Below are positions 42,481 through 56,573 of a DNA stretch of 64,000 nucleotides, piece by piece. Source of the stretch: Naegleria gruberi. Lineage: Eukaryota. Made by a program: the position numbers and the translations under genes. Within the stretch, counting starts at the first letter, position 1; every line of letters starts with the position of its first letter. Where the stretch lies: NCBI GenBank assembly GCA_000004985.1, contig GG738846.1, one strand, 5' to 3'. A model generated the notes under the pieces. It was not told the DNA's origin, made no database searches, and was given only the letters and a program-made list of their open reading frames with translations.

Positions 42481-43809
42481 TTAAAGATATTTAATATTTT
42501 CTTCTTCTTTTTGCTTGCTTCTTCTTAACCATTCTTTGGATGGTGAAATGAGATCTATTTGAGGTGTTTGTCTATGACTGCTCTTAGATGCACTCTTCTT
42601 AGTTGGGCTTGCTTGAGCGGCTTCAGCATCTTGAATGCAATCTAAAATGCTTACACTTGTCTTACTGGAAAATAGTCCTTGTGGAGGTGCTGAGAAGGTT
42701 GAATTCACTGAATTATTTAGTTCTGGTGTTGTAAATTGAGTTAGTAATTCCTCATCCTCATTAAATTCCAAAGTTCCATCGTCCAAGATCATTGTTGGCT
42801 CCCTACTTTGATCCATAGAAGAATTGAAATAGTTGGTCTTCTTATTGGCTTGATCGTTCGTGACTGGCTTTTGCAAAGATTTGATCTTGATACCATCCTT
42901 TGAACCAAATGAAAATTCCTTAGGTATGGTTATTTGATTTTTCCATTTAGTTCCGGTTTGGAATACCTTATCCACATCACTCTTCTTTTCTCTTGCTATT
43001 TTTTGTCTATGAAGGAATTCGTCATATCCTAGAGGATCTCTGTTTTCCTTAGGAGAACTGATTTTCAATCTTTGTGTATTTGGAGAAAATGTACATCCTT
43101 CCAATTCTCTTTCATCAACTTCTCGTTTACCTTTAATAATCTTTTGCTTTCTTCTTATTTCCCAAATAGCAGCTCTGTCACTTACTGTTTTCCCTTTAAG
43201 ATTAAACTTGTTCACTGTTTTGGAAACATTTGGAGAAAATGTACATCCTTCCAGTTCCTTTTCCATGAATTCCTTCTTCTTTTCTTCAATCTTTTGCTGT
43301 TTTTTAGAGGTTTTTTTGTACAATTCATTAATTCTTTGCTCGAAGGAATCAAACTTGTTCTTTCCTGAATCAATTTCTACAGACTTCTTATTAAGTGCTG
43401 GTCTAAATGTATATTGAACATCTTCTACTCTAGGAGAAGTTGGTTTTTGCATAAATAAACGCTCCTTGGAAGTATGGGGAAGTCTAGAGGCAATTTCCAA
43501 TGAAACGACATTCAATTCTGGTTTATGTGTAAGATCCTTATTGTATGCTTCCAATAGTTCTTGTGTATTTCTGTCATAACTTCTTACACTTTGAGGAGGT
43601 TGGTAATAAAAGTTCTCTGAATAATCATCAAAATCCTCATCCATCTCTCCGTCGCTGGCCATGCTTTCAGAAGTATTCATCTTCTTTTTAGCCTTAATAT
43701 AATTTACAAGTCTTAGAGTCCTAGGATTTATCTTTGATCTATATAATTTATATATGCAACCGCCACCATCATTCTTGTTAATAAACTTAACGGTCATAAA
43801 TAAATACAT
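42481..43809 (-). CDS. Coiled-coil protein with internally duplicated ELEGCTFSPN module (real start probably an internal Met)
   Basis: ATG at 43809, but MYLFMTVKFINKND is hydrophobic and atypical. MNTSESMASDGEMDED further in is a more plausible start. A ~150-bp internal DNA duplication (43075-43110 versus 43226-43262) encodes the repeated EKELEGCTFSPN. Confidence 0.5.
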   Translation of the reverse strand: MYLFMTVKFINKNDGGGCIYKLYRSKINPRTLRLVNYIKAKKKMNTSESMASDGEMDEDFDDYSENFYYQPPQSVRSYDRNTQELLEAYNKDLTHKPELNVVSLEIASRLPHTSKERLFMQKPTSPRVEDVQYTFRPALNKKSVEIDSGKNKFDSFEQRINELYKKTSKKQQKIEEKKKEFMEKELEGCTFSPNVSKTVNKFNLKGKTVSDRAAIWEIRRKQKIIKGKREVDERELEGCTFSPNTQRLKISSPKENRDPLGYDEFLHRQKIAREKKSDVDKVFQTGTKWKNQITIPKEFSFGSKDGIKIKSLQKPVTNDQANKKTNYFNSSMDQSREPTMILDDGTLEFNEDEELLTQFTTPELNNSVNSTFSAPPQGLFSSKTSVSILDCIQDAEAAQASPTKKSASKSSHRQTPQIDLISPSKEWLRRSKQKEEENIKYL

Positions 43810-44881: not shown

Positions 44882-47270
44882 ATTCAAGCAGCAAATAGGA
44901 TTGGAAATGGAGGAGGTTGTAAAACCCTCAGTAAAACACTCAATTCTTCAAACTCAAGGAATGAAGTTGGATACATCAAGCACAGAATCATTCTCTCTGA
45001 GCTCACAATTTTCATCTGAGGATGTTCAACTTTCGCTCTTTAATGGATTAGTTTTCTATCTTGTTGGATTTCCTACAGACCTAGTAACTAGTGTGAGAAA
45101 ATTAATTAGAAAGTATGGTGGAAATGCCACTTTTACAACAAACAGTTTGAATTATATAATAGCTAACGACAATACACCACCTGAAACCATCAAAAATCTC
45201 AAAGAGAAACTCAATTATGATCCTCCAGTTGTTTCATACAAGTGGTTCCTTAATTGTATAGAGAGTATGCAAGTTTTACCTATTGAGGAGAAAAATGAAC
45301 AAAATGAAAAAATATCCTCAAGTACATTCGATGACAATAATATTGATATTGATATCAGCGAAGAGGATTTAGCTGATGCAATCCAATCTCAAACTTGTAT
45401 TACAAATGAGATGACACATGAAAAGAATGAAAAGCTTCTCTTTTCTAGCCTTTTGTTCAAGCTTGCTGACAATTTATTGTCACAAAAACAAATTGCTAAA
45501 TCTATAATTGAAAGGAATGGTGGAAAATTTGTGAATTTAGGACTAGATTATGATTTTATAATATATCCAGAGTCTTGCAAAACCCCTCGTGAAACTAACC
45601 CAAAAATAAGAACACTAAAATGGCTAAAAGACTCGGATGCTGAAAAAACTGTAAAGACTGCAGAGGAGTGTCTACTTTATGTGCCTACCTTCAGATTGGC
45701 TCTTGATAAAATCAAAACTGAAAATGAAAGGCTCCTCATTGTAATTTCCGGATACCCTGATCAAAAGCAGATATTACAATCTATTATTGAGGCTCTGGGT
45801 GGTTCCACTTCCAAGACTATGAGAAAAACTGCAGACATTCTGGTTTGTGAAAAGAAATCTGACAAGTCGGATTTTGCCATCAAACACCAGATACCAGTTG
45901 TTAATGAGAAATGGCTGTTTGATAGCTATAAGGCTGGATACTTCCTTTCTCCCACAGATTTTATTTTCAATCCTAACTCTACAAATTCTAACATCACACC
46001 CAATATTTCTGTGAAAACCAGCATCACAACCACCAACACTACAGACAAAAATATTAATAAGGATACCTCGACTAGCACCACACCGACAGAAAAAAAATCA
46101 ACCAATCTTCCTGTATTTGAAAAGACTGAAAAGGCAGATAAAGAGGATCAGATAACACCAACAAAGACTATAATACTCGATGAAAATGCACGAGATTCCA
46201 ATTCTCCTCATAGTACTACCAATATCCAACCCCCAACTATGCCAGCTCCTCCCACTCCTACCACTGTAATACCTGTTGATACTGCAGCTTTAACTAATTT
46301 CAAAAGCAAATTGCTCGATAAACTACCAAAGAGGAAGGATACCACTACAAAGGCAATAGAATTTTCTGAACAATCAAACGTACATTTTATTCCAAAAAAG
46401 AATTTGGAAAATCTGACATTTTTCAATTCTCAAAACACTTCAGAATCCAATAGTCTCTCACACTATGGAGGCACCTCTGAAGCAGAAAATGAATACAATG
46501 AAAAGGTAAAGAATGATAGAAATAGAACTATTCCAGATTTTGCTATGAGTCTTGGGACATTTGCTGAAACCCAAGTTATTGATCACGACAATGAGGTTCA
46601 AAAAATCAAATGGAAACAATCGAATGCAGAGAAACGTCACTTTTTACTTTCTTCATTAGCCGAAAAGCAAAAAAAGGAGGTCACAAAATACATCCAAGCC
46701 TTGGATGGAGTAATAGATGAATTGTACATACCCAATGTGACAACACATTTTATTGCTGGCTCAGCAGTTCAAACTGAGAAATTTCTATGTAGTGTAGCTG
46801 CAGGTATTTGGATTCTTTGCCCAAAATATGTTGAAGATAGTTACCAACAGCAATACTGGATACAAGAGGATGACTATCAATGGATCCATAAGCAAGCCGA
46901 TATTAAGTCAGATCAACAGGATGCTATCAGGTATCTCATAACTGCCCAAAAAATTAGGGATAACAAGACTAAGCCATTTTCAGGAATGTCAGTCTTTTTC
47001 GTTCAGAACACAAACCCTTCATTTGTTAGAATTATTACTGCAGGAGGTGGGGTGATACTCCCTTCCATAACTGATCCACGTCTCACTCATATTTTCGTAA
47101 AGGAGGCAAGTGACACTGAAGATATGAAAAAAGCATATCCCAATACTTTTGTGACCTATGAAGAGCAAATTAGCGGTTTTCTAATGACTGATGAAAAGAA
47201 AACTTCTAGAGAAACATCAAGTGAAGAAAGTGAAAAGAAGAAGAGGAAAGTAATAAAGAAAAGCAAATAA
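44882..47270 (+). CDS. TopBP1/Dpb11-like, exon 4 of 4 (at least 3 further BRCT domains)
   Basis: The 39-nt intron (44843-44881) ends in ATCAG. The BRCT motifs are FNGLVFYLVGF ... VVSYKWFLNCIES, LLIVISGYPDQ ... EKWLFDSYKAG, and SGMSVFFVQNT ... VILPS. Total CDS is 2949 nt, giving 982 aa. Confidence 0.7.
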
Positions 47271-47443: not shown

Positions 47444-47551
47444 CTTTGTTAAAATACCTATTTAACCACATCAATGATTTCAAAAATCATTTTTTCAATA
47501 AAATACCAAATTATTTGACATTTCAATTATGTATTGATTACTAAATTTTAC

Positions 47552-47980
47552 TCTACCTTTAAAATCATTAGAGCATTGTTTACAAGGAAACAAATCAGCA
47601 GTCATATAAACCCATTTCAATAATTTATCTTGATCCAAATCTTTATAATTCTGTACAAAAGCATGGAAAACATTCCAAACATGAGGTCCAATCATTTCTC
47701 TCGTTAGTGTTCCCTTATTTTCCTCTATATTACATTGTGTATTCAATGATGACGATTCCAATCTAGCAAAATACTCTTTCAAAAACAATTCCTCCTCTTC
47801 CTCCGATAAATAAACAGGAACAATCGATGACTTGTTATATTGTACATTAAATAAAACAAAAATAAATATCGTTGATAGAATTAGAATGATGAAAAATAAA
47901 TATTTTTGATGATGATGTTGATATTTGAATGGTGATCCCGATCCCGAAAGTACTGGCAGTGTTGTTGTTGAGGGGATCAT
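47552..47980 (-). CDS. Erv1/ALR-family FAD sulfhydryl oxidase with N-terminal TM anchor, exon 1 of 2
   Basis: ATG at 47980. The TM helix is YLFFIILILSTIFIFVLFNV. The Erv motifs are GPHVWNVFHAFVQNY and the redox CxxC in FPCKQCSNDF. The candidate donor is GTAAAA at 47551 on the minus strand, and its exact position is uncertain. Confidence 0.55.
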
Positions 47981-48167
47981 TTTTTTTGAAATTGTAAAGA
48001 TTTTGTATTACTCCTCGTTTGGTGATTTTTTTAATTACCTGAAATAATGTGTTAAATGTCAAAGGTAGCCGTCAGGTTTAAAGGTAGTTCTCCACAAACT
48101 AAAAATTATTAATTTCGCTCAAAATTTATCTAATTACCCGCGAATTGGTAATAAATTGAAAAAAAAA

Positions 48168-51100
48168 ATGTTGGCAAGAAAATTGTTTGGAAAATGCACA
48201 ACAAATAATCGCCATCTCGTATTAAAATCATCGCAATATGCCACAAAATTCTACTCCACAAGTGGTGCTGAAAAAAATTTAGTTGCAAATATTGAGAGTT
48301 GTATAAGAAATATTAATAATCATTATCGGAGTAAGAAAGAAAAAGAATTTAATAACGGTTTGCTGGATTTGAAGCAATTTTGCTCCCAATTAAATGATGC
48401 AACGGAAAGGAAACTAAATGAAAAATCGTGGAATTTTTTGATTCAACAATTTTGTAGAAACGAAGCCTTTAGTGATGAAGCTACATTTTGGTTCAGAAGA
48501 GTTATGAAAGAGAAGAAATTAGCCACTCCAAATTCATTCACTTTGACTGCGATATTAAAATCATTCTCTACTATTGGTGAATTAGATATGTGTGAAGAAA
48601 TTCTACAAGAATTAGAAAGTCAAGGACTATGCAACGTTTTCTCATACATATACTACACAAAAGCTTGTCTTCAAAATGGAAACACTGAGAAGGCTTTCAG
48701 TGTTATTGGACGTATGGAGAGTAAACAAATTGAACCAAGTTTTGGAATATACATTCCTCTTCTAAAGGAAGCAACTAACCAAAATAATGTGGAAGTTGGA
48801 TTGAAACTTTATGATATGATCAAAAAAAGTAACTTGGCAAGTTTTCAATTATCATCTTGTATCGCCACTTTTGCTTTGAAGGTGAACCGACCAGATATTG
48901 CAATCGAAGAATACGAAAAGATTAAACAGAGTGAATTGATGAATGTTATAACTTGGACATGTTTAATTCAAGCATACATTCAACAAAATGATACTGAGAA
49001 AGCAATAGATACGCTTATTGACATGAAAAAACATGGTATATACCCAGATTCTGCAACATTCACAATTTTATTGAGTGCATGTGCAAATTCTAATATGTAT
49101 GAAGAAGGAGTTAAAATTCATGAACTTGCAAAACAAACACTCAAAGATTTCACAATTGGATTATCAAACACAATTATTAATTTTTACACAAAATGTGGTT
49201 ATTCAAATATTGCCATAGAAGAATGTGAAAAATTGAAACAGAACGGATTGATGAATGTTGTAACTTGGACATGTTTAATTCAAGCATACATTCAACAAAA
49301 TGACATTGAGAAAGCAATAGATATGATTATTGACATGAAAAAGCATGGTATTTACCCAGATTCTGCAACATTCACAATTTTATTGAGTGCATGTGCAAAT
49401 TCTAATATGTATGAAGAAGGAGTTAAAATTCATGAACTTGCAAAACAAACACTCAAAGATTTTCAATTAGACTATCAACAGCAACTATTAATTTTTACAC
49501 TAAATGTGGTTATTCAAATATTGCCATAGAAGAATGTGAAAAATTGAAACAGAAAGGATTGATGAATGTTATAACTTGGACATGTTTAATTCAAGCATAC
49601 ATTCAACAAAATGATATTGAGAAAGCAATGAATACGATTATTGACATGAAAAACAGTGGTGTTATACCTAGATTCAACAACATTCACAATTTTATTGAGT
49701 GCATGTGCAAATTCTAATATGTATGAAGAAGGAGTTAAAATTCATGAACTTGCAAAACAAACACTCAAAGATTTCACAATTGAATTATCAAACACAATTA
49801 TTAATTTTTACACAAAATGTGGTTATTCAAATATTGCAATCGAAGAATACGAAAAGATTAAACAGAGTGAATTGATGAATGTTATAACTTGGACATGTTT
49901 AATTCAAGCATACATTCAACAAAATGATATTGAGAAAGCAATAGATACGCTTATTGACATGAAAAAACATGGTATATACCCAGATTCTGCAACATTCACA
50001 ATTTTATTGAGTGCATGTGCAAATTCTAATATGTATGAAGAAGGAGTTAAAATTCATGAACTTGCAAAACAAACACTCAAAGATTTCACAATTGAATTAT
50101 CCAACACAACTATTAATTTTTACACTAAATGTGGTTATTCAAATATTGCCATTGAAGAATGTGAAAAATTGAAACAGAACGGATTGATGAATGTTGTAAC
50201 TTGGACATGTTTAATTCAAGCATACATTCAACAAAATGACATTGAGAAAGCAATAGATATGATTATTGACATGAAAAAGCATGGTATATACCCAGATTCT
50301 GCAACATTCACAATTTTATTGAGTGCATGTGCAAAATCTAATATGTATGAAGAAGGAGTTAAAATTCATGAACTTGCAAAACAAACACTCAAAATATTTT
50401 CTTTAGAGCTATCGACAGCGACTATTAATTTTTATACTAAATGTGGTTATTCAAATATTGCCATTGAAGAATGTGAAAAATTGAAACAGAAAGGATTGAT
50501 GAATGTTATAACTTGGACATGTTTAATTCAAGCATACATTCAACAAAATGACGTTGAGAAAGCACTGAATACGATTACTAATATGAAAAACAGTGGTGTT
50601 GTACCTAACTCAACAACATTCACAATTTTATTGAGTGCATGTGCAAATTCTAATATGTATGAAGAAGGAGTTAAAATTCATGAACTTGCAAAACAAACTC
50701 TCAAAGTTTTCACAATTGAATTATCGCAACACAATTATTAATTTTTACACAAAATGTGGTTATCCAAATATTGCAATCGAAGAATATGAAAAGATTAAAC
50801 AGAGTGAATTGATGAATGTTATAACTTGGACATGTTTAATTCAAGCATACATTCAACAAAATGACATTGATAAAGCAATAGATACGCTTATTGACATGAA
50901 AAAACATGGTATATACCCAGATTCTGCAACATTCACAATTTTATTGAGTGAATGTGCAAATTCTAATATGTATGAAGAAGGAGTTAAAATTCATGAACTT
51001 GCAAAACAAACTCTCAAAGATTTCACAATTGAATTATCAAACACAATTATTAATTTTTACACTAAATGTGGTTATTCAAATATTGCCATAGAAGAATGTG

Positions 51101-53364
51101 AAAAATTGAAACAGAAAGGATTGATGAATGTTGTAACTTGGACATGTTTAATTCAAGCATACATTCAACAAAATGACATTGAGAAAGCAATAGATATGAT
51201 TATTGACATGAAAAAGAGTGGTGTTTACCTAGATTCAACAACATTCACAATTTTATTGAGTGCATGTGCAAATTCTAATATGTATGAAGAAGGAGTTAAA
51301 ATTCATGAACTTGCAAAACAAACTCTCAAAGATTTCACATTTGAACTATCAGACACAATTATTAATTTTTACACAAAATGTGGTTATTCAAATATCGCCA
51401 TTGAAGAATGTGAAAAACTGAAACATAACGGATTGATGAATGTTGTAACTTGGAACTGTTTAATTCAAGCATACATTCAACAAAATGACATTGAGAAAGC
51501 AATAGATATGATTATTGACATGAAAAAGCATGGTGTTGTACCTAATTCAACAACATTCACAATTTTATTGAGTGCATGCGCAAATTCTAATATGTATGAA
51601 GAAGGAGTTAAAATTCATGAACTTGCAAAACAAACACTCAAAGTATTTTCTTTAGAGCTATCGACAGCGACTATTAATTTTTATACTAAATGTGGTTATT
51701 CAAATATCGCTATTGAGGAATGTGAAAAACTGAAACAGAAAGGATTGATGAATGTTGTAACTTGGACATGTTTAATTCAAGCATACATTCAACAAAATGA
51801 TATTGAGAAAGCAATGAATACGATTATTAATATGAAAAAGAGTGGTGTTGTACCTAATTCAACAACATTCACAATTTTATTGAGTGCATGTGCAAATTCT
51901 AATATGTATGAAGAAGGAGTTAAAATTCATGAACTTGCAAAACAAACACTCAAAGATTTCACAATTGAATTATCAAACACAATTATTAATTTTTACACAA
52001 AATGTGGTTATTCAAATATTGCCATAGAAGAATGTGAAAAATTGAAACAGAACGGATTGATGAATGTTGTAACTTGGAACTGTTTAATTCAAGCATACAT
52101 TCAACAAAATGATATGTCAAACACCCACACTCCATCAGATGCAGAATATGGGTTGAATAAGGCATTTAGAGTCTATCAGGAAATGAAACAAAAAAACTTT
52201 GAACCTAACAGTTATACCTTCAGCATTTTAATGGCAGCGTGTGGAGAATATGTAGCTTCAAACATTGGAATTCAAATAATTGAGGATATAAAACAAAACA
52301 ACATGGATATCTATGAAGAGGTTATTTCTGGTATGGTTTATTTTTACTCTAGAGTTGGCCAAAAAGAAACTGCACAACAATTATTTGATAATCTTGTTAG
52401 AAAGAAGGATGAATCAAAAGAACCACTTTCTATCGTCACTTATACTAATATGCTTTCTTGTTATGCACAACACGGTAAAGGATATGAAGCTCAAAAACTG
52501 TTCGATGAAATTGTTGAAAAGAAAGTCAAAATTGATGAAATAACTCTAATAGTATTATTGAATGCATATTCACATTGTGGAATGGTTGAAGAAGCAATTC
52601 AATTATATAATGATATGAAACCAAAACATAATTTTAATCCAACCCTCTCTATTGATTGCGTTATGATTGATGTGTTTTCTCGTGCAGGAAGATTTGAGGA
52701 AGCAGAAAAACTAATAGGTAGTCGCAATGATATTGGTTTGTGGGGCGCATTGATGGGAGGATGTAGAAAATTCAATAAGATTGAACTTGGTGAAAAAGTA
52801 TTTAACAAAATGACAACAATTGATGAAAAACTAACCTCACCCTATATATTATTATCCCATATCTACACATATCATGGATTAAACGAAAAAGCTAACAAAT
52901 TGCAAAAATTGATGCGAAAAAGAGGTATAAAAAAATTGCCTGGTATTGTGTATCATGAAGAAAATGGCATTGTATTTAGATTTATTTCTGGATCTGACGA
53001 CCACAAAGAGGACTCTCAAATGTTTGCACAAATTGAGAGAATGAGAGATGAAATATTTCGTAAAATTATTAAGGCTGGATATAGACCAGATACAAGATGG
53101 GTTACCAGAACCGAATCATTGTCAGAGGAGGAAAAAGTTAATTTGCTTTATCGACATGCTGAAAAAACAGCCATTGCTCACGCCTTTGTTTTGAATCCAA
53201 ATAGAAAGAAAATAGTATTAACAAAAAATCTGAGAGTTTGCAATGATTGCCATTCGGCTACTACGTACATTTCAAAAGTGATGGATGTTGAAATTATTGT
53301 AAGAGATGCCAATAGGTATCATCATTTCAAAGATGGAAAATGTAGTTGTGGTGGTTATTGGTAA
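48168..53364 (+). CDS. PLS-type pentatricopeptide repeat protein with C-terminal E/DYW cytidine-deaminase domain; reading frame broken by three 1-nt indels (pseudogene or assembly error)
   Basis: ATG at 48168 (the track start at 48156 is TTG). The N-terminus MLARKLFGKCTTNNRHLVLKSSQYATKFYSTS looks like a mitochondrial presequence. There are about 10 tandem 105-aa units (a P-L-S PPR triplet: ...NVVTWTCLIQAYIQQNDIEKAIDMIIDMKKHGIYPDSATFTILLSACANSNMYEEGVKIHELAKQ...). The C-terminus carries HAEKTAIAHAF ... CNDCH ... CSCGGYW, which is the HxE/CxxCH zinc-binding DYW signature. Frame breaks: a 1-nt deletion near 49465, a 1-nt insertion near 49665, and a 1-nt insertion near 50715. Confidence 0.7.
48880..52110. 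repeat. Tandem array of ~10 near-identical 315-bp units (coding PLS triplets)
   Basis: By eye, units such as 49107-49421, 50027-50341 and 51687-52000 differ at only a few percent of positions. Confidence 0.8.
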
Positions 53365-55349: not shown

Positions 55350-56573
55350 TCAATGATCGTTGGATTCTGAGCTATCCGAATCAACCTCAGCTGAGGTTGG
55401 CATGGTTGGCTCAGTAACTTGTGGAAGGAGAACAGTGGTAGTAGTAGTGGTGGTAGCATACAAGCCAGGAAAACCTGGTACTGGAGTTGGATTGAAAATT
55501 GGAGGAGGAATGAGAACATGGTTTTGAGTATCAGCATTTGATTCTTCGTTTGGAAGAGGGATTGGCTGTTGCTGAGCTAGATGAATTTCCTCTTGAACTG
55601 GAGGTCTATTAAGTCTAACATAGGTCACAGCATCAGAATCGGCATGTAATTCTACTTGTTGAGATTTAATAGGAATTTGCTTTTCTACAATTCCCTCTGG
55701 TCTCATATTCATTTCATCTTGTTTTGGTGGATCAATGGTGTTCAATACTCGATTGTCTCGTTCTTGGCGAACATGAACATGATTGGCAATTGGCGTCCGT
55801 TGTTGATGGTGTCTATTGAGTTCAATGAGAGTTTTGGCTTCCATTTCCATTTGCTCAGAGACTATTCTTGCCCTGTCTCTCATTCTCTTAACCATTCCCC
55901 AAAAACATGCTGAAGCCATTACTAGAAGAATTAGCAATCCACAAATGATTAGAATTGGGAAAATGACCGATTCAAAATCTCCATAATCTACATAATCTAA
56001 AACTTCATAATGGAATATTATTCGACTCTCCATTCCAGGAGGTAATTGACTTTCCACAACTATAAAAAAGAGGGGCCTAGGATAGTAAGGTGAATAAGTG
56101 TATATTACACTCGTTTCATATTCTCCTTCATAATTAATGTTTGCAACTAGAGGGAACCTCCTCACATCATCTTCCGAAACTGATGGATCACTGCTCAATA
56201 CCACTCTAAAGTTCTCTTTTGTTAGGTTGGAAGGGAAAGGAATGGTGACTCCAAACCTCAGTTCTCTATCACTTGTTGCAGTTCCATTGATTTGAACAAT
56301 ATACAGTTTCTGCCCTGTCCCTCGCACAATAACAGGGTTTCCATTAATTATGCCTTCAGGTACCAATTTAATATTTCTAGATGATGGTTGTTGTAGATTT
56401 CTAAAATCTAGTGAGAATGAATAAGCATTTTGAGGAAGTATGTACAATAATATTATTATAAAGGTAATGAAAATTAGAAAGTTATTATATCGTGATGTTT
56501 CATCTTTCCGCCTCATCAGATTAATATTGAATGGCGGTGATGATGAGGGAGATGAATTTAATTGAGGCGACAT
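55350..56573 (-). CDS. Type I membrane protein, unknown family (407 aa)
   Basis: ATG at 56573. The N-terminal hydrophobic segment is FLIFITFIIILLYILP. There is an ectodomain with N-glycosylation sequons, one TM (VIFPILIICGLLILLVMASACFWGMV) and a Pro/Gln-rich cytoplasmic tail. Confidence 0.5.
   Translation of the reverse strand: MSPQLNSSPSSSPPFNINLMRRKDETSRYNNFLIFITFIIILLYILPQNAYSFSLDFRNLQQPSSRNIKLVPEGIINGNPVIVRGTGQKLYIVQINGTATSDRELRFGVTIPFPSNLTKENFRVVLSSDPSVSEDDVRRFPLVANINYEGEYETSVIYTYSPYYPRPLFFIVVESQLPPGMESRIIFHYEVLDYVDYGDFESVIFPILIICGLLILLVMASACFWGMVKRMRDRARIVSEQMEMEAKTLIELNRHHQQRTPIANHVHVRQERDNRVLNTIDPPKQDEMNMRPEGIVEKQIPIKSQQVELHADSDAVTYVRLNRPPVQEEIHLAQQQPIPLPNEESNADTQNHVLIPPPIFNPTPVPGFPGLYATTTTTTTVLLPQVTEPTMPTSAEVDSDSSESNDH

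What the first reader, a model, noticed from the sequence alone, without database searches (positions are those of the whole stretch)
48168..53364. Plant-type PLS-class PPR protein with a DYW deaminase domain, built from ~10 near-identical 315-bp tandem units and carrying frame-breaking indels
DYW-type PPR proteins are the specificity and catalytic factors for organellar C-to-U RNA editing in land plants. Outside plants they are known from only a few protist lineages, heteroloboseans among them. This locus has an N-terminal presequence-like leader, about 10 P-L-S triplets, and a terminal HxE ... CxxCH ... CSCGGYW domain. The repeat units are almost identical at the nucleotide level, which implies very recent tandem amplification or gene conversion. 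Three single-nucleotide indels (~49465 -1, ~49665 +1, ~50715 +1) put the presequence, the middle and the DYW end in three different frames. So this is either a freshly pseudogenised editing factor or a collapsed and mis-assembled repeat. With about 30 PPR motifs it would address a roughly 30-nt RNA target.
Basis: partly seen in the sequence, partly recalled or inferred. Interest (0 to 1): 0.85.

Follow-up and report, generated by a model that had tools for sequence, protein, structure and literature searches.

The report
Naegleria DYW-type PPR gene, frameshifted
This is one of the already published plant-like mitochondrial RNA-editing factor genes (PLS-class PPR protein with a DYW cytidine deaminase) of the amoeba Naegleria gruberi; in the reference assembly three 1-base indels break it, so it is annotated as two separate proteins, and the sequence alone cannot show whether the breaks are real.

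Summary
On the + strand, 48168-53364 carries a presequence-like leader, a PPR array and a C-terminal E1/E2/DYW deaminase module (Pfam DYW_deaminase 1.2e-37, E_motif 1.2e-13; PDB 9KFX 3.6e-73). The tandem period is 312 bp (104 aa, one P-L-S triplet), not 315. There are 10.3 copies, 84-98% identical, arranged as a 936-bp three-unit higher-order repeat. Three 1-nt indels (49464-49472 -1, 49664-49671 +1, 50724-50727 +1) are real in this sequence. Repairing them gives one 5,196-nt CDS of 1,731 aa with about 40 PPR motifs.

The window is Naegleria gruberi NEG-M. The locus is annotated as two adjacent predicted proteins: XP_002682649 (749 aa, with a computed "intron" over indels 1 and 2) and XP_002682650 (822 aa, the DYW end). 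DYW-type PPR proteins in this species were published in 2010 and mitochondrial C-to-U editing in 2011, so the kind is already known.

Pseudogene or assembly error stays open. Older variation between units shows coding constraint, while the youngest changes look neutral. All three indels sit in the two hypervariable patches that separate unit types, which fits mis-stacked reads or ectopic recombination. Interest is modest: an annotation correction and a clear case of in-gene PPR amplification.

The parts
48168..53364 (+). Whole locus: one PLS-class PPR-E1-E2-DYW gene. After three 1-nt repairs it is 5,196 nt and 1,731 aa. It is currently annotated as NAEGRDRAFT_45423 plus NAEGRDRAFT_45424.
   Evidence: repaired CDS has no internal stop; gene models.
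48168..48269 (+). Presequence-like N-terminal leader, MLARKLFGKCTTNNRHLVLKSSQYATKFYSTSGA: 6 K/R, 0 D/E, 8 S/T in 34 aa.
   Evidence: Composition count. Mitochondrial targeting is inferred, no predictor was run.
48423..48944 (+). Degenerate N-terminal PPR motifs: two motifs plus triplet U0, which is 35% identical to an array unit.
   Evidence: tblastn of the unit against 48636-48944, E 5e-13; PPR_long, PPR_3 hits.
48945..52065 (+). Tandem array of ten 312-bp units. Each unit is 104 aa: P 35 + L 35 + S 34. The units are organised as a 936-bp higher-order repeat (U1-3, U4-6, U7-10).
49464..49472 (+). Indel 1: one base missing in unit U2, shifting frame 0 to frame 2. Best read as loss of G in TTAGA[G]CTATC by comparison with U5 and U9.
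49527..49529 (+). First in-frame stop met by translation from the ATG at 48168 as the sequence stands. The product would be 453 aa, PPR only.
49664..49671 (+). Indel 2: one extra base in unit U3, shifting frame 2 back to frame 0. U3 reads GTT[A]TACCTA[G]ATTC. It combines the extra base that U6/U9/U10 have before TACCTA with the G that U8 has after it.
49348..49671 (+). 324-nt GT..AG 'intron' in gene model XP_002682649, spanning indels 1 and 2. It consists of in-frame PPR repeat sequence, so it is most likely an annotation patch.
   Evidence: Mapping of the P0004 junction KKH|DSTTF onto the window. 'Annotation patch' is inference.
50724..50727 (+). Indel 3: one extra base in unit U6, shifting frame 0 to frame 1. 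U6 has TC[G]CAAC where U4 has TCCAAC and the other units have TCAAAC.
50739..50741 (+). Stop codon that ends the first annotated model (XP_002682649).
52066..52737 (+). Diverged last PLS triplet (U11, with a 13-aa insert in its P motif) followed by P2-L2-S2.
   Evidence: alignment to 9KFX.
52738..52938 (+). E1 and E2 motifs.
   Evidence: Pfam E_motif 1.2e-13; 9KFX alignment; coordinates.
52939..53364 (+). DYW cytidine deaminase domain with stop codon: PG-box-like PGIVYHEENGIVFRF, HAE at 53155, CNDCH at 53239, CSCGGYW at the end.
   Evidence: Pfam DYW_deaminase 1.2e-37; PDB 7O4E 2.7e-28 and 9KFX 3.6e-73.

Best explanation
The locus is a single nuclear gene of Naegleria gruberi for a DYW-type PLS-class pentatricopeptide repeat protein. 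It belongs to the family published for this species in 2010.

How an intact copy would work, inferred from the plant family:
- The N-terminal presequence takes the protein into the mitochondrion.
- The PPR solenoid binds single-stranded RNA just 5' of a target cytidine. Each motif reads one nucleotide through its residue 5 and its last residue.
- E1 and E2 position the zinc-dependent DYW deaminase (HxE, CxxCH), which converts C to U.

The array is unusually long, about 40 motifs. A 9-motif (936 bp) block was recently triplicated inside the gene. Differences between units cluster in two patches that include specificity-determining residues.

As the reference sequence stands, three 1-nt indels inside the array break the frame. 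Translation from the ATG would stop after 453 aa and never reach the deaminase. The public annotation therefore splits the gene into XP_002682649 and XP_002682650. I judge it about even whether these indels are (a) consensus or assembly errors in a hard-to-assemble repeat, or differences confined to one haplotype, or (b) genuine very recent inactivating mutations.
For: Identity and family:
- The C-terminal ORF is 100% identical to XP_002682650, and XP_002682649 maps to the upstream part of the locus (its N-terminus and KKH|DSTTF junction); both come from the same 1.0-Mb N. gruberi scaffold.
- Pfam gives PPR_2 1e-107, E_motif 1.2e-13 and DYW_deaminase 1.2e-37.
- The E1/E2/DYW module aligns end to end with 9KFX and with OTP86 7O4E, keeping HxE, CxDCH and HHFKDGxCSCGxYW.

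One gene rather than two:
- Three 1-nt repairs give a 5,196-nt ORF in which units fall exactly every 104 aa.
- The true frame has no stops, against 73-154 stops in the other frames.

Coding constraint in the array's history:
- Pooled pN/pS is 0.35.
- Variable columns show a third-position excess of 20/15/33. The excess also holds for the units downstream of the stops.

Recent amplification:
- U1/U4/U7 differ at only 6-8 of 312 nt.
- Units cluster within this gene rather than with units of the 56%-identical paralog.

Literature: PMC4202320 reports 10-11 DYW-type PPR proteins and two verified mitochondrial C-to-U sites in N. gruberi.

Pointers towards artefact or haplotype difference:
- All three indels lie in the top 2-7% most variable positions of the unit.
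- The paralog exists in two assembled versions with near-identical ends but different repeat organisation.

Pointer towards real decay: 19 changes private to single units split 4 synonymous to 15 nonsynonymous, which is the neutral expectation.
Against: - There is no expression, protein or editing evidence for this gene.
- The RNA target is unknown. The code-predicted target (GnY GnA AnY, about three times) is periodic, which is odd for a unique editing site.
- Mitochondrial targeting rests only on amino-acid composition.
- I could not read the primary 2010 and 2011 papers. I therefore could not confirm that this accession is among the listed proteins, or whether the frameshifts were already noted.
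- No reads or second assembly were available, so the real-versus-artefact question is open.
Confidence: 0.9

Rival explanations
1. The frameshifts are consensus or assembly errors, or are confined to one haplotype. In the organism there is an intact 1,731-aa gene that encodes a working mitochondrial editing factor.
For: - All three indels fall in the two hypervariable patches where unit types differ by several adjacent bases (percentiles 0.93, 0.98 and 0.95, computed without the affected unit). If the three sites were placed uniformly, the chance is about 4e-4 or less. Mis-stacked reads from different units would produce indels exactly there.
- U3 at site 2 looks like a hybrid of the U9/U10 form and the U8 form, which are offset by one base around TACCTA.
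- Apart from the indels, the frame is perfectly open over 5.2 kb.
- The paralog XP_002675345 has a second assembled version, XP_002668380, on a 7.96-kb mini-scaffold with a different repeat layout. Its model also contains truncated units of 88 and 91 aa.
- Naegleria is described as a heterozygous diploid, and NEG-M was the only N. gruberi genome included in the 2023 pangenome study (PMC9928731).
Against: - Three errors within 1.3 kb is far above the normal consensus error rate of a finished Sanger assembly (my own knowledge of typical rates).
- None of the indels lies in a long homopolymer.
- There are no gaps or Ns nearby.
- The youngest substitutions look neutral, which also fits real decay.
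Confidence: 0.5
2. The frameshifts are real. The gene is a very young pseudogene of a recently amplified editing factor. Only a 453-aa PPR fragment, if anything, is made.
For: - The sequence as given contains the indels, and premature stops follow at 49527 and 50739.
- 19 private single-unit changes split 4 synonymous to 15 nonsynonymous and are spread evenly over codon positions (6/5/8). That matches neutrality and contrasts with the older constrained variation.
- 19 substitutions to 3 indels is a plausible neutral ratio. With 5.7% of point changes creating stops, seeing none among 19 is unremarkable (P about 0.33).
- N. gruberi has 10-11 DYW proteins but only 2 verified editing sites (PMC4202320), so surplus copies could be dispensable.
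- The repetitive code-predicted target suggests the amplification was not driven by target recognition.
Against: - Clustering of the indels in the variable patches is not expected for random mutation. Ectopic gene conversion between out-of-register unit variants could explain it, though.
- Random sequencing errors would give the same neutral-looking pattern among private changes.
- No in-frame stop or larger deletion has accumulated.
Confidence: 0.4
3. The frame breaks are bypassed during expression, by programmed ribosomal frameshifting, transcript slippage, or splicing of the annotated 324-nt GT..AG interval. Alternatively the two halves act as separate PPR and DYW proteins in trans, as the plant E+ PPR/DYW1 pairs do.
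For: - A GT..AG interval at 49348-49671 would remove indels 1 and 2 in frame. This is the JGI model.
- Split PPR plus trans DYW systems exist in plants (stated in the introduction of bioRxiv 10.64898/2026.09.04.749523).
Against: - There is no X_XXY_YYZ slippery site in the -1 overlap window, and no recognisable +1 signal at sites 2 or 3.
- The supposed intron is ordinary in-frame repeat sequence, homologous to the other units.
- Indel 3 has no such bypass.
- The DYW-bearing model starts at an internal Met (MKKHGIYPDS) inside a PPR motif and has no presequence, so it would lack an import signal.
Confidence: 0.04

Closest known systems
Naegleria gruberi DYW-type PPR protein family (Knoop and Rudinger 2010, FEBS Lett 584:4287; mitochondrial editing sites in Rudinger et al. 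2011, RNA 17:2058; both as cited in PMC4202320)
   Same: Same organism. The DYW end is GenBank XP_002682650 / NAEGRDRAFT_45424. It has a PLS array, E1/E2 and a DYW domain with HxE and CxxCH.
   Different: In the reference sequence this copy is interrupted by three 1-nt indels and split into two gene models. Its array is more uniform than that of the closest paralog I could inspect unit by unit (XP_002675345): ten units that are 76-97% identical at the protein level. I could not check whether the original paper lists or discusses this copy.
Paralog NAEGRDRAFT_69406 (XP_002675345, 1,231 aa) and its near-duplicate NAEGRDRAFT_76708 (XP_002668380)
   Same: 56% and 51% identity over 96% of the query. 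Same architecture: the same type of N-terminal PPRs, 104-105-aa PLS units, the same insert-bearing last P motif, and an E1/E2/DYW end in ...CSCDGYW.
   Different: Its units are much more diverged from each other (40-87%) and cluster within their own gene. The arrays were therefore amplified or homogenised separately.
Land-plant PLS-DYW RNA editing factors, e.g. OTP86 (At3g63370, PDB 7O4E), DYW1 (PDB 7W86) and the synthetic PLS-DYW protein (PDB 9KFX)
   Same: The L2-S2-E1-E2-DYW module aligns without large gaps (3.6e-73 to 9KFX). The catalytic HxE and CxDCH and the C-terminal HHFKDGxCSCGxYW are conserved. The best non-Naegleria database hits are plant DYW proteins at 25-31% identity.
   Different: - It occurs in a heterolobosean amoeba.
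- The S motif is 34 aa.
- The end is GYW rather than DYW.
- The PG box is altered: PGIVYHEENGIVFRF against PGxSWIEVxGxxHxF.
- The array of about 40 motifs is a near-perfect tandem repeat.
Acrasis kona DYW-type PPR proteins (12 ORFs; PMC4202320)
   Same: Another heterolobosean with plant-type DYW PPR proteins and two verified mitochondrial C-to-U sites. It also has far more DYW proteins than known sites.
   Different: That paper's phylogeny groups the Acrasis proteins with Physarum and the Naegleria proteins with rotifers, so they are not close relatives.

Membership tests
PLS-class PPR proteins | Tandem array of alternating P, L and S pentatricopeptide motifs | tested here: met
   Pfam PPR_2 up to 9.7e-108 and PPR 1.9e-76. 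Each 104-aa unit splits into 35 + 35 + 34 aa motifs and recurs exactly every 104 aa after repair.
DYW-type PPR editing factors | E1/E2 (E motif) extension between the PPR array and the deaminase | tested here: met
   Pfam E_motif PF20431 at 1.2e-13 and 51.5 bits, above the 27.3 cut-off. The region aligns to the E1/E2 part of 9KFX.
DYW-type PPR editing factors | DYW cytidine deaminase domain with zinc-binding HxE and CxxCH | tested here: met
   Pfam DYW_deaminase at 1.2e-37, covering the full profile 1-93/93. HAE and CNDCH align with HSE and CGDCH/CRDCH of 9KFX and 7O4E.
DYW-type PPR editing factors | C-terminal CxCx(D/G)YW second zinc site and DYW tripeptide | tested here: met
   The protein ends in KCSCGGYW. 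It is GYW rather than DYW, and the paralogs end in DGYW, NNYW or GDFF.
DYW-type PPR editing factors | PG box (PGxSWIEVxGxxHxF) at the E2/DYW junction | tested here: inconclusive
   The sequence is PGIVYHEENGIVFRF. PG, the central G and the final F are kept, while W becomes Y and H becomes R. The same variant type is seen in the paralogs. The consensus is taken from PMC4202320.
DYW-type PPR editing factors (functional gene) | Uninterrupted reading frame from the targeting peptide to the DYW end | tested here: not met
   Three 1-nt indels are present, with stops at 49527 and 50739 as the sequence stands. Whether that reflects the organism or the assembly could not be tested.
DYW-type PPR editing factors | Organelle (mitochondrial) targeting | tested here: inconclusive
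   The first 34 aa have 6 K/R, 0 D/E and 8 S/T. This is presequence-like by composition only. No predictor or experiment was available.
DYW-type PPR editing factors | Site-specific C-to-U editing of an organellar transcript that matches the PPR code | not testable with these tools
   The code-derived target was computed.
[quoted passage not shown] | Listed by accession in the primary paper | not testable with these tools
   The primary papers are not held. No held paper mentions the accessions. The supplement of PMC4202320 gives no accession list.

The most novel reading that the evidence does not exclude
The indels are genuine, and the locus is a snapshot of birth-and-death evolution of an editing factor outside plants. 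A 9-PPR block was triplicated inside the gene. Diversification concentrated on the residues that read RNA bases (P-motif residue 35, S-motif residue 5). One-base register slips then arose during ectopic conversion between unit variants and broke the frame. A further possibility is that the mitochondrially targeted N-terminal PPR fragment, or a 40-motif protein from an intact second haplotype, binds a periodic RNA and has a role other than single-site editing.
Probability: 0.12. Interest if true: 0.5.

Novelty: already known. Interest (0 to 1): 0.3.

Why it matters
DYW-type PPR proteins in Naegleria are the textbook example of plant-type RNA editing machinery outside plants, so the family itself is not news.

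Three practical points follow from this locus.

1. Two adjacent "predicted proteins" in the reference proteome, XP_002682649 and XP_002682650, are one gene. Family counts, phylogenies and PPR-code target predictions that use the 822-aa model miss more than half of the RNA-binding array and the targeting peptide.
2. The locus is a clean example of how PLS arrays grow. Whole 9-motif blocks duplicate in tandem, and change then concentrates at code positions.
3. N. gruberi has about 10 DYW proteins for 2 known editing sites. Whether this copy is alive or dead bears on the open question of what the surplus proteins do.

Resolving the indels needs only one amplicon or one long-read run.

Tried and rejected
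Searches that led nowhere:
- Exact-protein look-ups of P0001, P0002 and P0003, intended to fetch the paralog loci or independent assemblies, found nothing on record.
- A protein search with the unique N-terminal 259 aa returned no hit, not even the identical XP_002682649. It is uninformative about orthologs in other Naegleria species.
- A metagenome scan with the N-terminal part found no relative. The scan with the C-terminal part found only three loci at 28% identity, which do not help with the frameshift question.
- The primary papers (Knoop and Rudinger 2010; Rudinger et al. 2011; Schallenberg-Rudinger et al. 2013) are not held. No held paper mentions the accessions or locus tags, and the PMC4202320 supplement has no accession list.
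- The first protein search showed no independent near-identical sequence from another source (Logan, ENA or a second assembly). No second copy of the sequence exists in the database.
- There are no tRNA or Rfam hits in the window, no other PPR or DYW copy in the window, and no Ns or gaps.

Readings considered and rejected:
- Programmed frameshifting: there is no slippery heptamer in the -1 window and no recognisable +1 signal.
- A real intron at 49348-49671: the interval is in-frame repeat sequence.
- Two independent genes: the DYW model starts inside a PPR motif without a presequence.


Full report

Yes. On the + strand, three long ORFs follow one another at 48156-49529, 49656-50741 and 50635-53364. 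Tandem Repeats Finder reports a single array at 48895-52112 with period 312, 10.3 copies, 91% matches and score 5168. It is the only large tandem repeat in the 64-kb window.

A conserved 24-mer anchor recurs at spacings of 312, 311, 313, 312, 312, 313, 312, 312, 312, 312. That spacing already shows one missing base and two extra bases.

A stop-codon map shows where the PPR reading frame is open:

| Frame (coordinate mod 3) | Open interval |
|---|---|
| 0 | 48102-49527 |
| 2 | 49433-49715 |
| 0 | 49647-50739 |
| 1 | 50632-53362 |

Over the same 5.3 kb, the frames taken as wholes contain 73-154 stops.

Aligning the units and printing the raw patches places the indels:

| Indel | Unit | Position | Change | Sequence evidence |
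|---|---|---|---|---|
| 1 | U2 | 49464-49472 | -1 | TTAGA-CTATC, where U5/U9 have TTAGAGCTATC |
| 2 | U3 | 49664-49671 | +1 | GTTATACCTAGATTC, where U8 has GTTTACCTAGATTC and U9/U10 have GTTGTACCTAATTC |
| 3 | U6 | 50724-50727 | +1 | TCGCAAC, where U4 has TCCAAC |

- The period is 312 bp, not 315.
- The N-terminal and middle parts share a frame. Only about 200 nt between indels 1 and 2 lies in another frame.
- 'Near-identical' means 84-98% identity.

**2. What is it?**

Pfam finds PPR_2 (9.7e-108), PPR, PPR_3, E_motif (1.2e-13) and DYW_deaminase (1.2e-37, covering the full profile) in the third ORF. The first two ORFs contain PPR families only.

The last 254 aa align end to end with the solved synthetic PPR-DYW protein 9KFX (3.6e-73) and with the OTP86 DYW domain 7O4E (2.7e-28). 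HxE (HAE), CxDCH (CNDCH) and HHFKDGxCSCGxYW are conserved.

Inserting one base at site 1 and deleting one base at each of sites 2 and 3 gives a 5,196-nt CDS with no internal stop. It encodes 1,731 aa, and the units then fall exactly every 104 aa.

Each unit is one P (35 aa), one L (35 aa) and one S (34 aa) motif. The motif count is:
- 30 motifs in the ten array units;
- degenerate triplets U0 and U11 on either side, each 35% identical to a unit (E 5e-13 and 1.5e-14);
- P2-L2-S2;
- two further N-terminal motifs.

That makes about 40 PPR motifs ahead of E1, E2 and DYW.

The first 34 residues have 6 K/R, no acidic residue and 8 S/T. This is presequence-like, and mitochondrial targeting is inferred from it.

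**3. Whose gene is it?**

The third ORF is 100% identical to XP_002682650.1 (NAEGRDRAFT_45424, 822 aa). The upstream part corresponds to XP_002682649.1 (NAEGRDRAFT_45423, 749 aa). Both are 'predicted protein [Naegleria gruberi]' on the same 1,001,995-bp scaffold.

It jumps from ...DMKKH to DSTTF..., which maps to a GT..AG interval at 49348-49671 (324 nt). That interval removes indels 1 and 2 and consists of ordinary in-frame repeat sequence. The model ends at the stop at 50739-50741 created by indel 3. The downstream model starts at an internal Met inside a P motif. The public annotation therefore patches and splits what is evidently one gene.

The flanking genes are unrelated: a BRCT-repeat protein, an Erv1/Alr fragment on the opposite strand, and a TMEM144-type transporter.

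**4. What is already known?**

PMC4202320 states three things:
- Two mitochondrial C-to-U sites were verified (Rudinger et al. 2011).
- The excess of DYW proteins over known sites is unexplained.

A 2026 preprint repeats that the biochemical functions of these protist proteins are uncharacterised.

I could not open the primary papers, and no held paper names the accessions. I therefore cannot say whether this copy's frameshifts were noted before.

**5. Anatomy of the array**

Pairwise differences show three unit types in a three-unit register:
- U1/U4/U7 differ at 6-8 of 312 nt.
- U2/U5/U9 differ at 16-18 nt between adjacent type members (U2-U5 16, U5-U9 18; U2-U9 28).
- U3/U6/U10 differ at 13-20 nt.

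A 936-bp block of nine PPR motifs was thus copied about three times.

Units are 76-97% identical to each other at the protein level. They are only 47-61% identical to units of the closest paralog (XP_002675345, 56% identical overall), whose own units are 40-87% alike. The two arrays were therefore amplified or homogenised independently.

Variation between units concentrates in two patches:
- the end of the P motif, HGIYPD / SGVVPN / SGVYLD, which includes the code residue 35;
- the L/S boundary, DFTIELSNTI / IFSLELSTAT / DFTFELSDTI, which includes S-motif residue 5.

Reading residue 5 and the last residue with the standard plant code gives roughly G-n-Y G-n-A A-n-Y, repeated three times. The assignments rest on established knowledge of the code, and L motifs were left unassigned. 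A periodic target is unexpected for a site-specific factor.

**6. Selection**

Pooled pN/pS between units is 0.35 (0.24-0.52 for the individual pairs printed).

Variable columns fall 20/15/33 on codon positions 1/2/3 (p = 0.02). The third-position excess also holds for units U4-U10 and U7-U10, which lie downstream of the premature stops. The array therefore diverged while it was being translated as a whole.

The 19 changes private to a single unit behave differently. They split 4 synonymous to 15 nonsynonymous and 6/5/8 over codon positions, which is the neutral expectation. That fits recent loss of constraint, and it fits random consensus errors equally well.

**7. Real frameshifts or artefact?**

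For artefact, or a difference confined to one haplotype:
- The three indels lie at the 93rd, 98th and 95th percentile of local between-unit diversity, computed without the affected unit. Uniform placement would give that with probability of about 4e-4 or less.
- Those patches are where reads from different units would misalign.
- At site 2, U3 combines the one-base offset of the U9/U10 form with that of the U8 form.
- The paralog exists in two assembled versions with near-identical ends but different repeat layout, one of them on a 7.96-kb mini-scaffold. Its model also contains truncated units.
- Naegleria is described as a heterozygous diploid, and NEG-M was the only N. gruberi genome in a 2023 pangenome study (PMC9928731).

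For real mutation:
- Three errors in 1.3 kb is a lot for a finished Sanger consensus.
- None of the indels is in a long homopolymer.
- There are no gaps nearby.
- The youngest substitutions look neutral.
- With 5.7% of point changes creating stops, seeing none among 19 changes is unremarkable.
- Ectopic conversion between out-of-register unit variants would also place real indels in the variable patches.

I found no independent copy of the sequence. I leave the question at roughly 50% artefact or haplotype difference, 40% genuine young pseudogene, and a few percent for expression-level bypass.

Bypass is unlikely for three reasons. There is no slippery heptamer and no recognisable +1 signal. 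The annotated intron is repeat sequence. The DYW model lacks a presequence.

**8. Verdict**

The kind of gene, the organism and even the protein accessions are already public, so novelty is low.

What this analysis adds:
- a corrected gene structure: one 1,731-aa gene with about 40 motifs instead of two models;
- the 936-bp higher-order repeat;
- the concentration of variation at RNA-reading residues;
- the finding that all three frame breaks sit in those same variable patches.

Interest: 0.3.

Noticed in passing
Not in the window: paralog proteins P0002 (XP_002675345, 395-kb scaffold) and P0003 (XP_002668380, 7.96-kb scaffold): The two N. gruberi models are nearly identical over the first ~290 aa and the last ~500 aa, but their PLS repeat arrays are laid out differently. 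One model also lacks a 34-aa piece of E1/E2. This looks like two haplotypes, or a leftover mis-assembly, of one PPR-array gene.
   Followed up: partly
window 49028-49072 and equivalents (unit positions ~84-108); window 49128-49190 and equivalents (unit positions ~198-232): Between-unit variation is concentrated in two short patches that contain PPR-code residues (P-motif residue 35; S-motif residue 5). The L motif and most of each helix are invariant. This could reflect diversifying selection on RNA specificity, which was not formally tested.
   Followed up: partly
window 47495-47980 (- strand): The ORF has a weak Erv1/Alr sulfhydryl oxidase hit (3e-06, profile positions 2-51 of 93 only). It is probably one exon of an intron-containing gene lying head to head with the PPR gene, about 190 bp from its ATG.
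   Followed up: no
window 44901-47270 (+ strand): A 789-aa ORF carries several BRCT domains (BRCT 1.4e-32, BRCT_2 4.3e-29, RTT107_BRCT_5 1.2e-10). It is a DNA-damage scaffold-type protein directly upstream of the PPR locus.
   Followed up: no
window 42481-43809 (-) and 55350-56573 (-): Two ORFs of more than 400 aa have no Pfam family at E <= 0.001.
   Followed up: no
Tool behaviour: A search with the first 259 aa of XP_002682649 did not return XP_002682649 itself, although that protein is in the collection. Negative results from the word-indexed protein search should not be read as absence.
   Followed up: no
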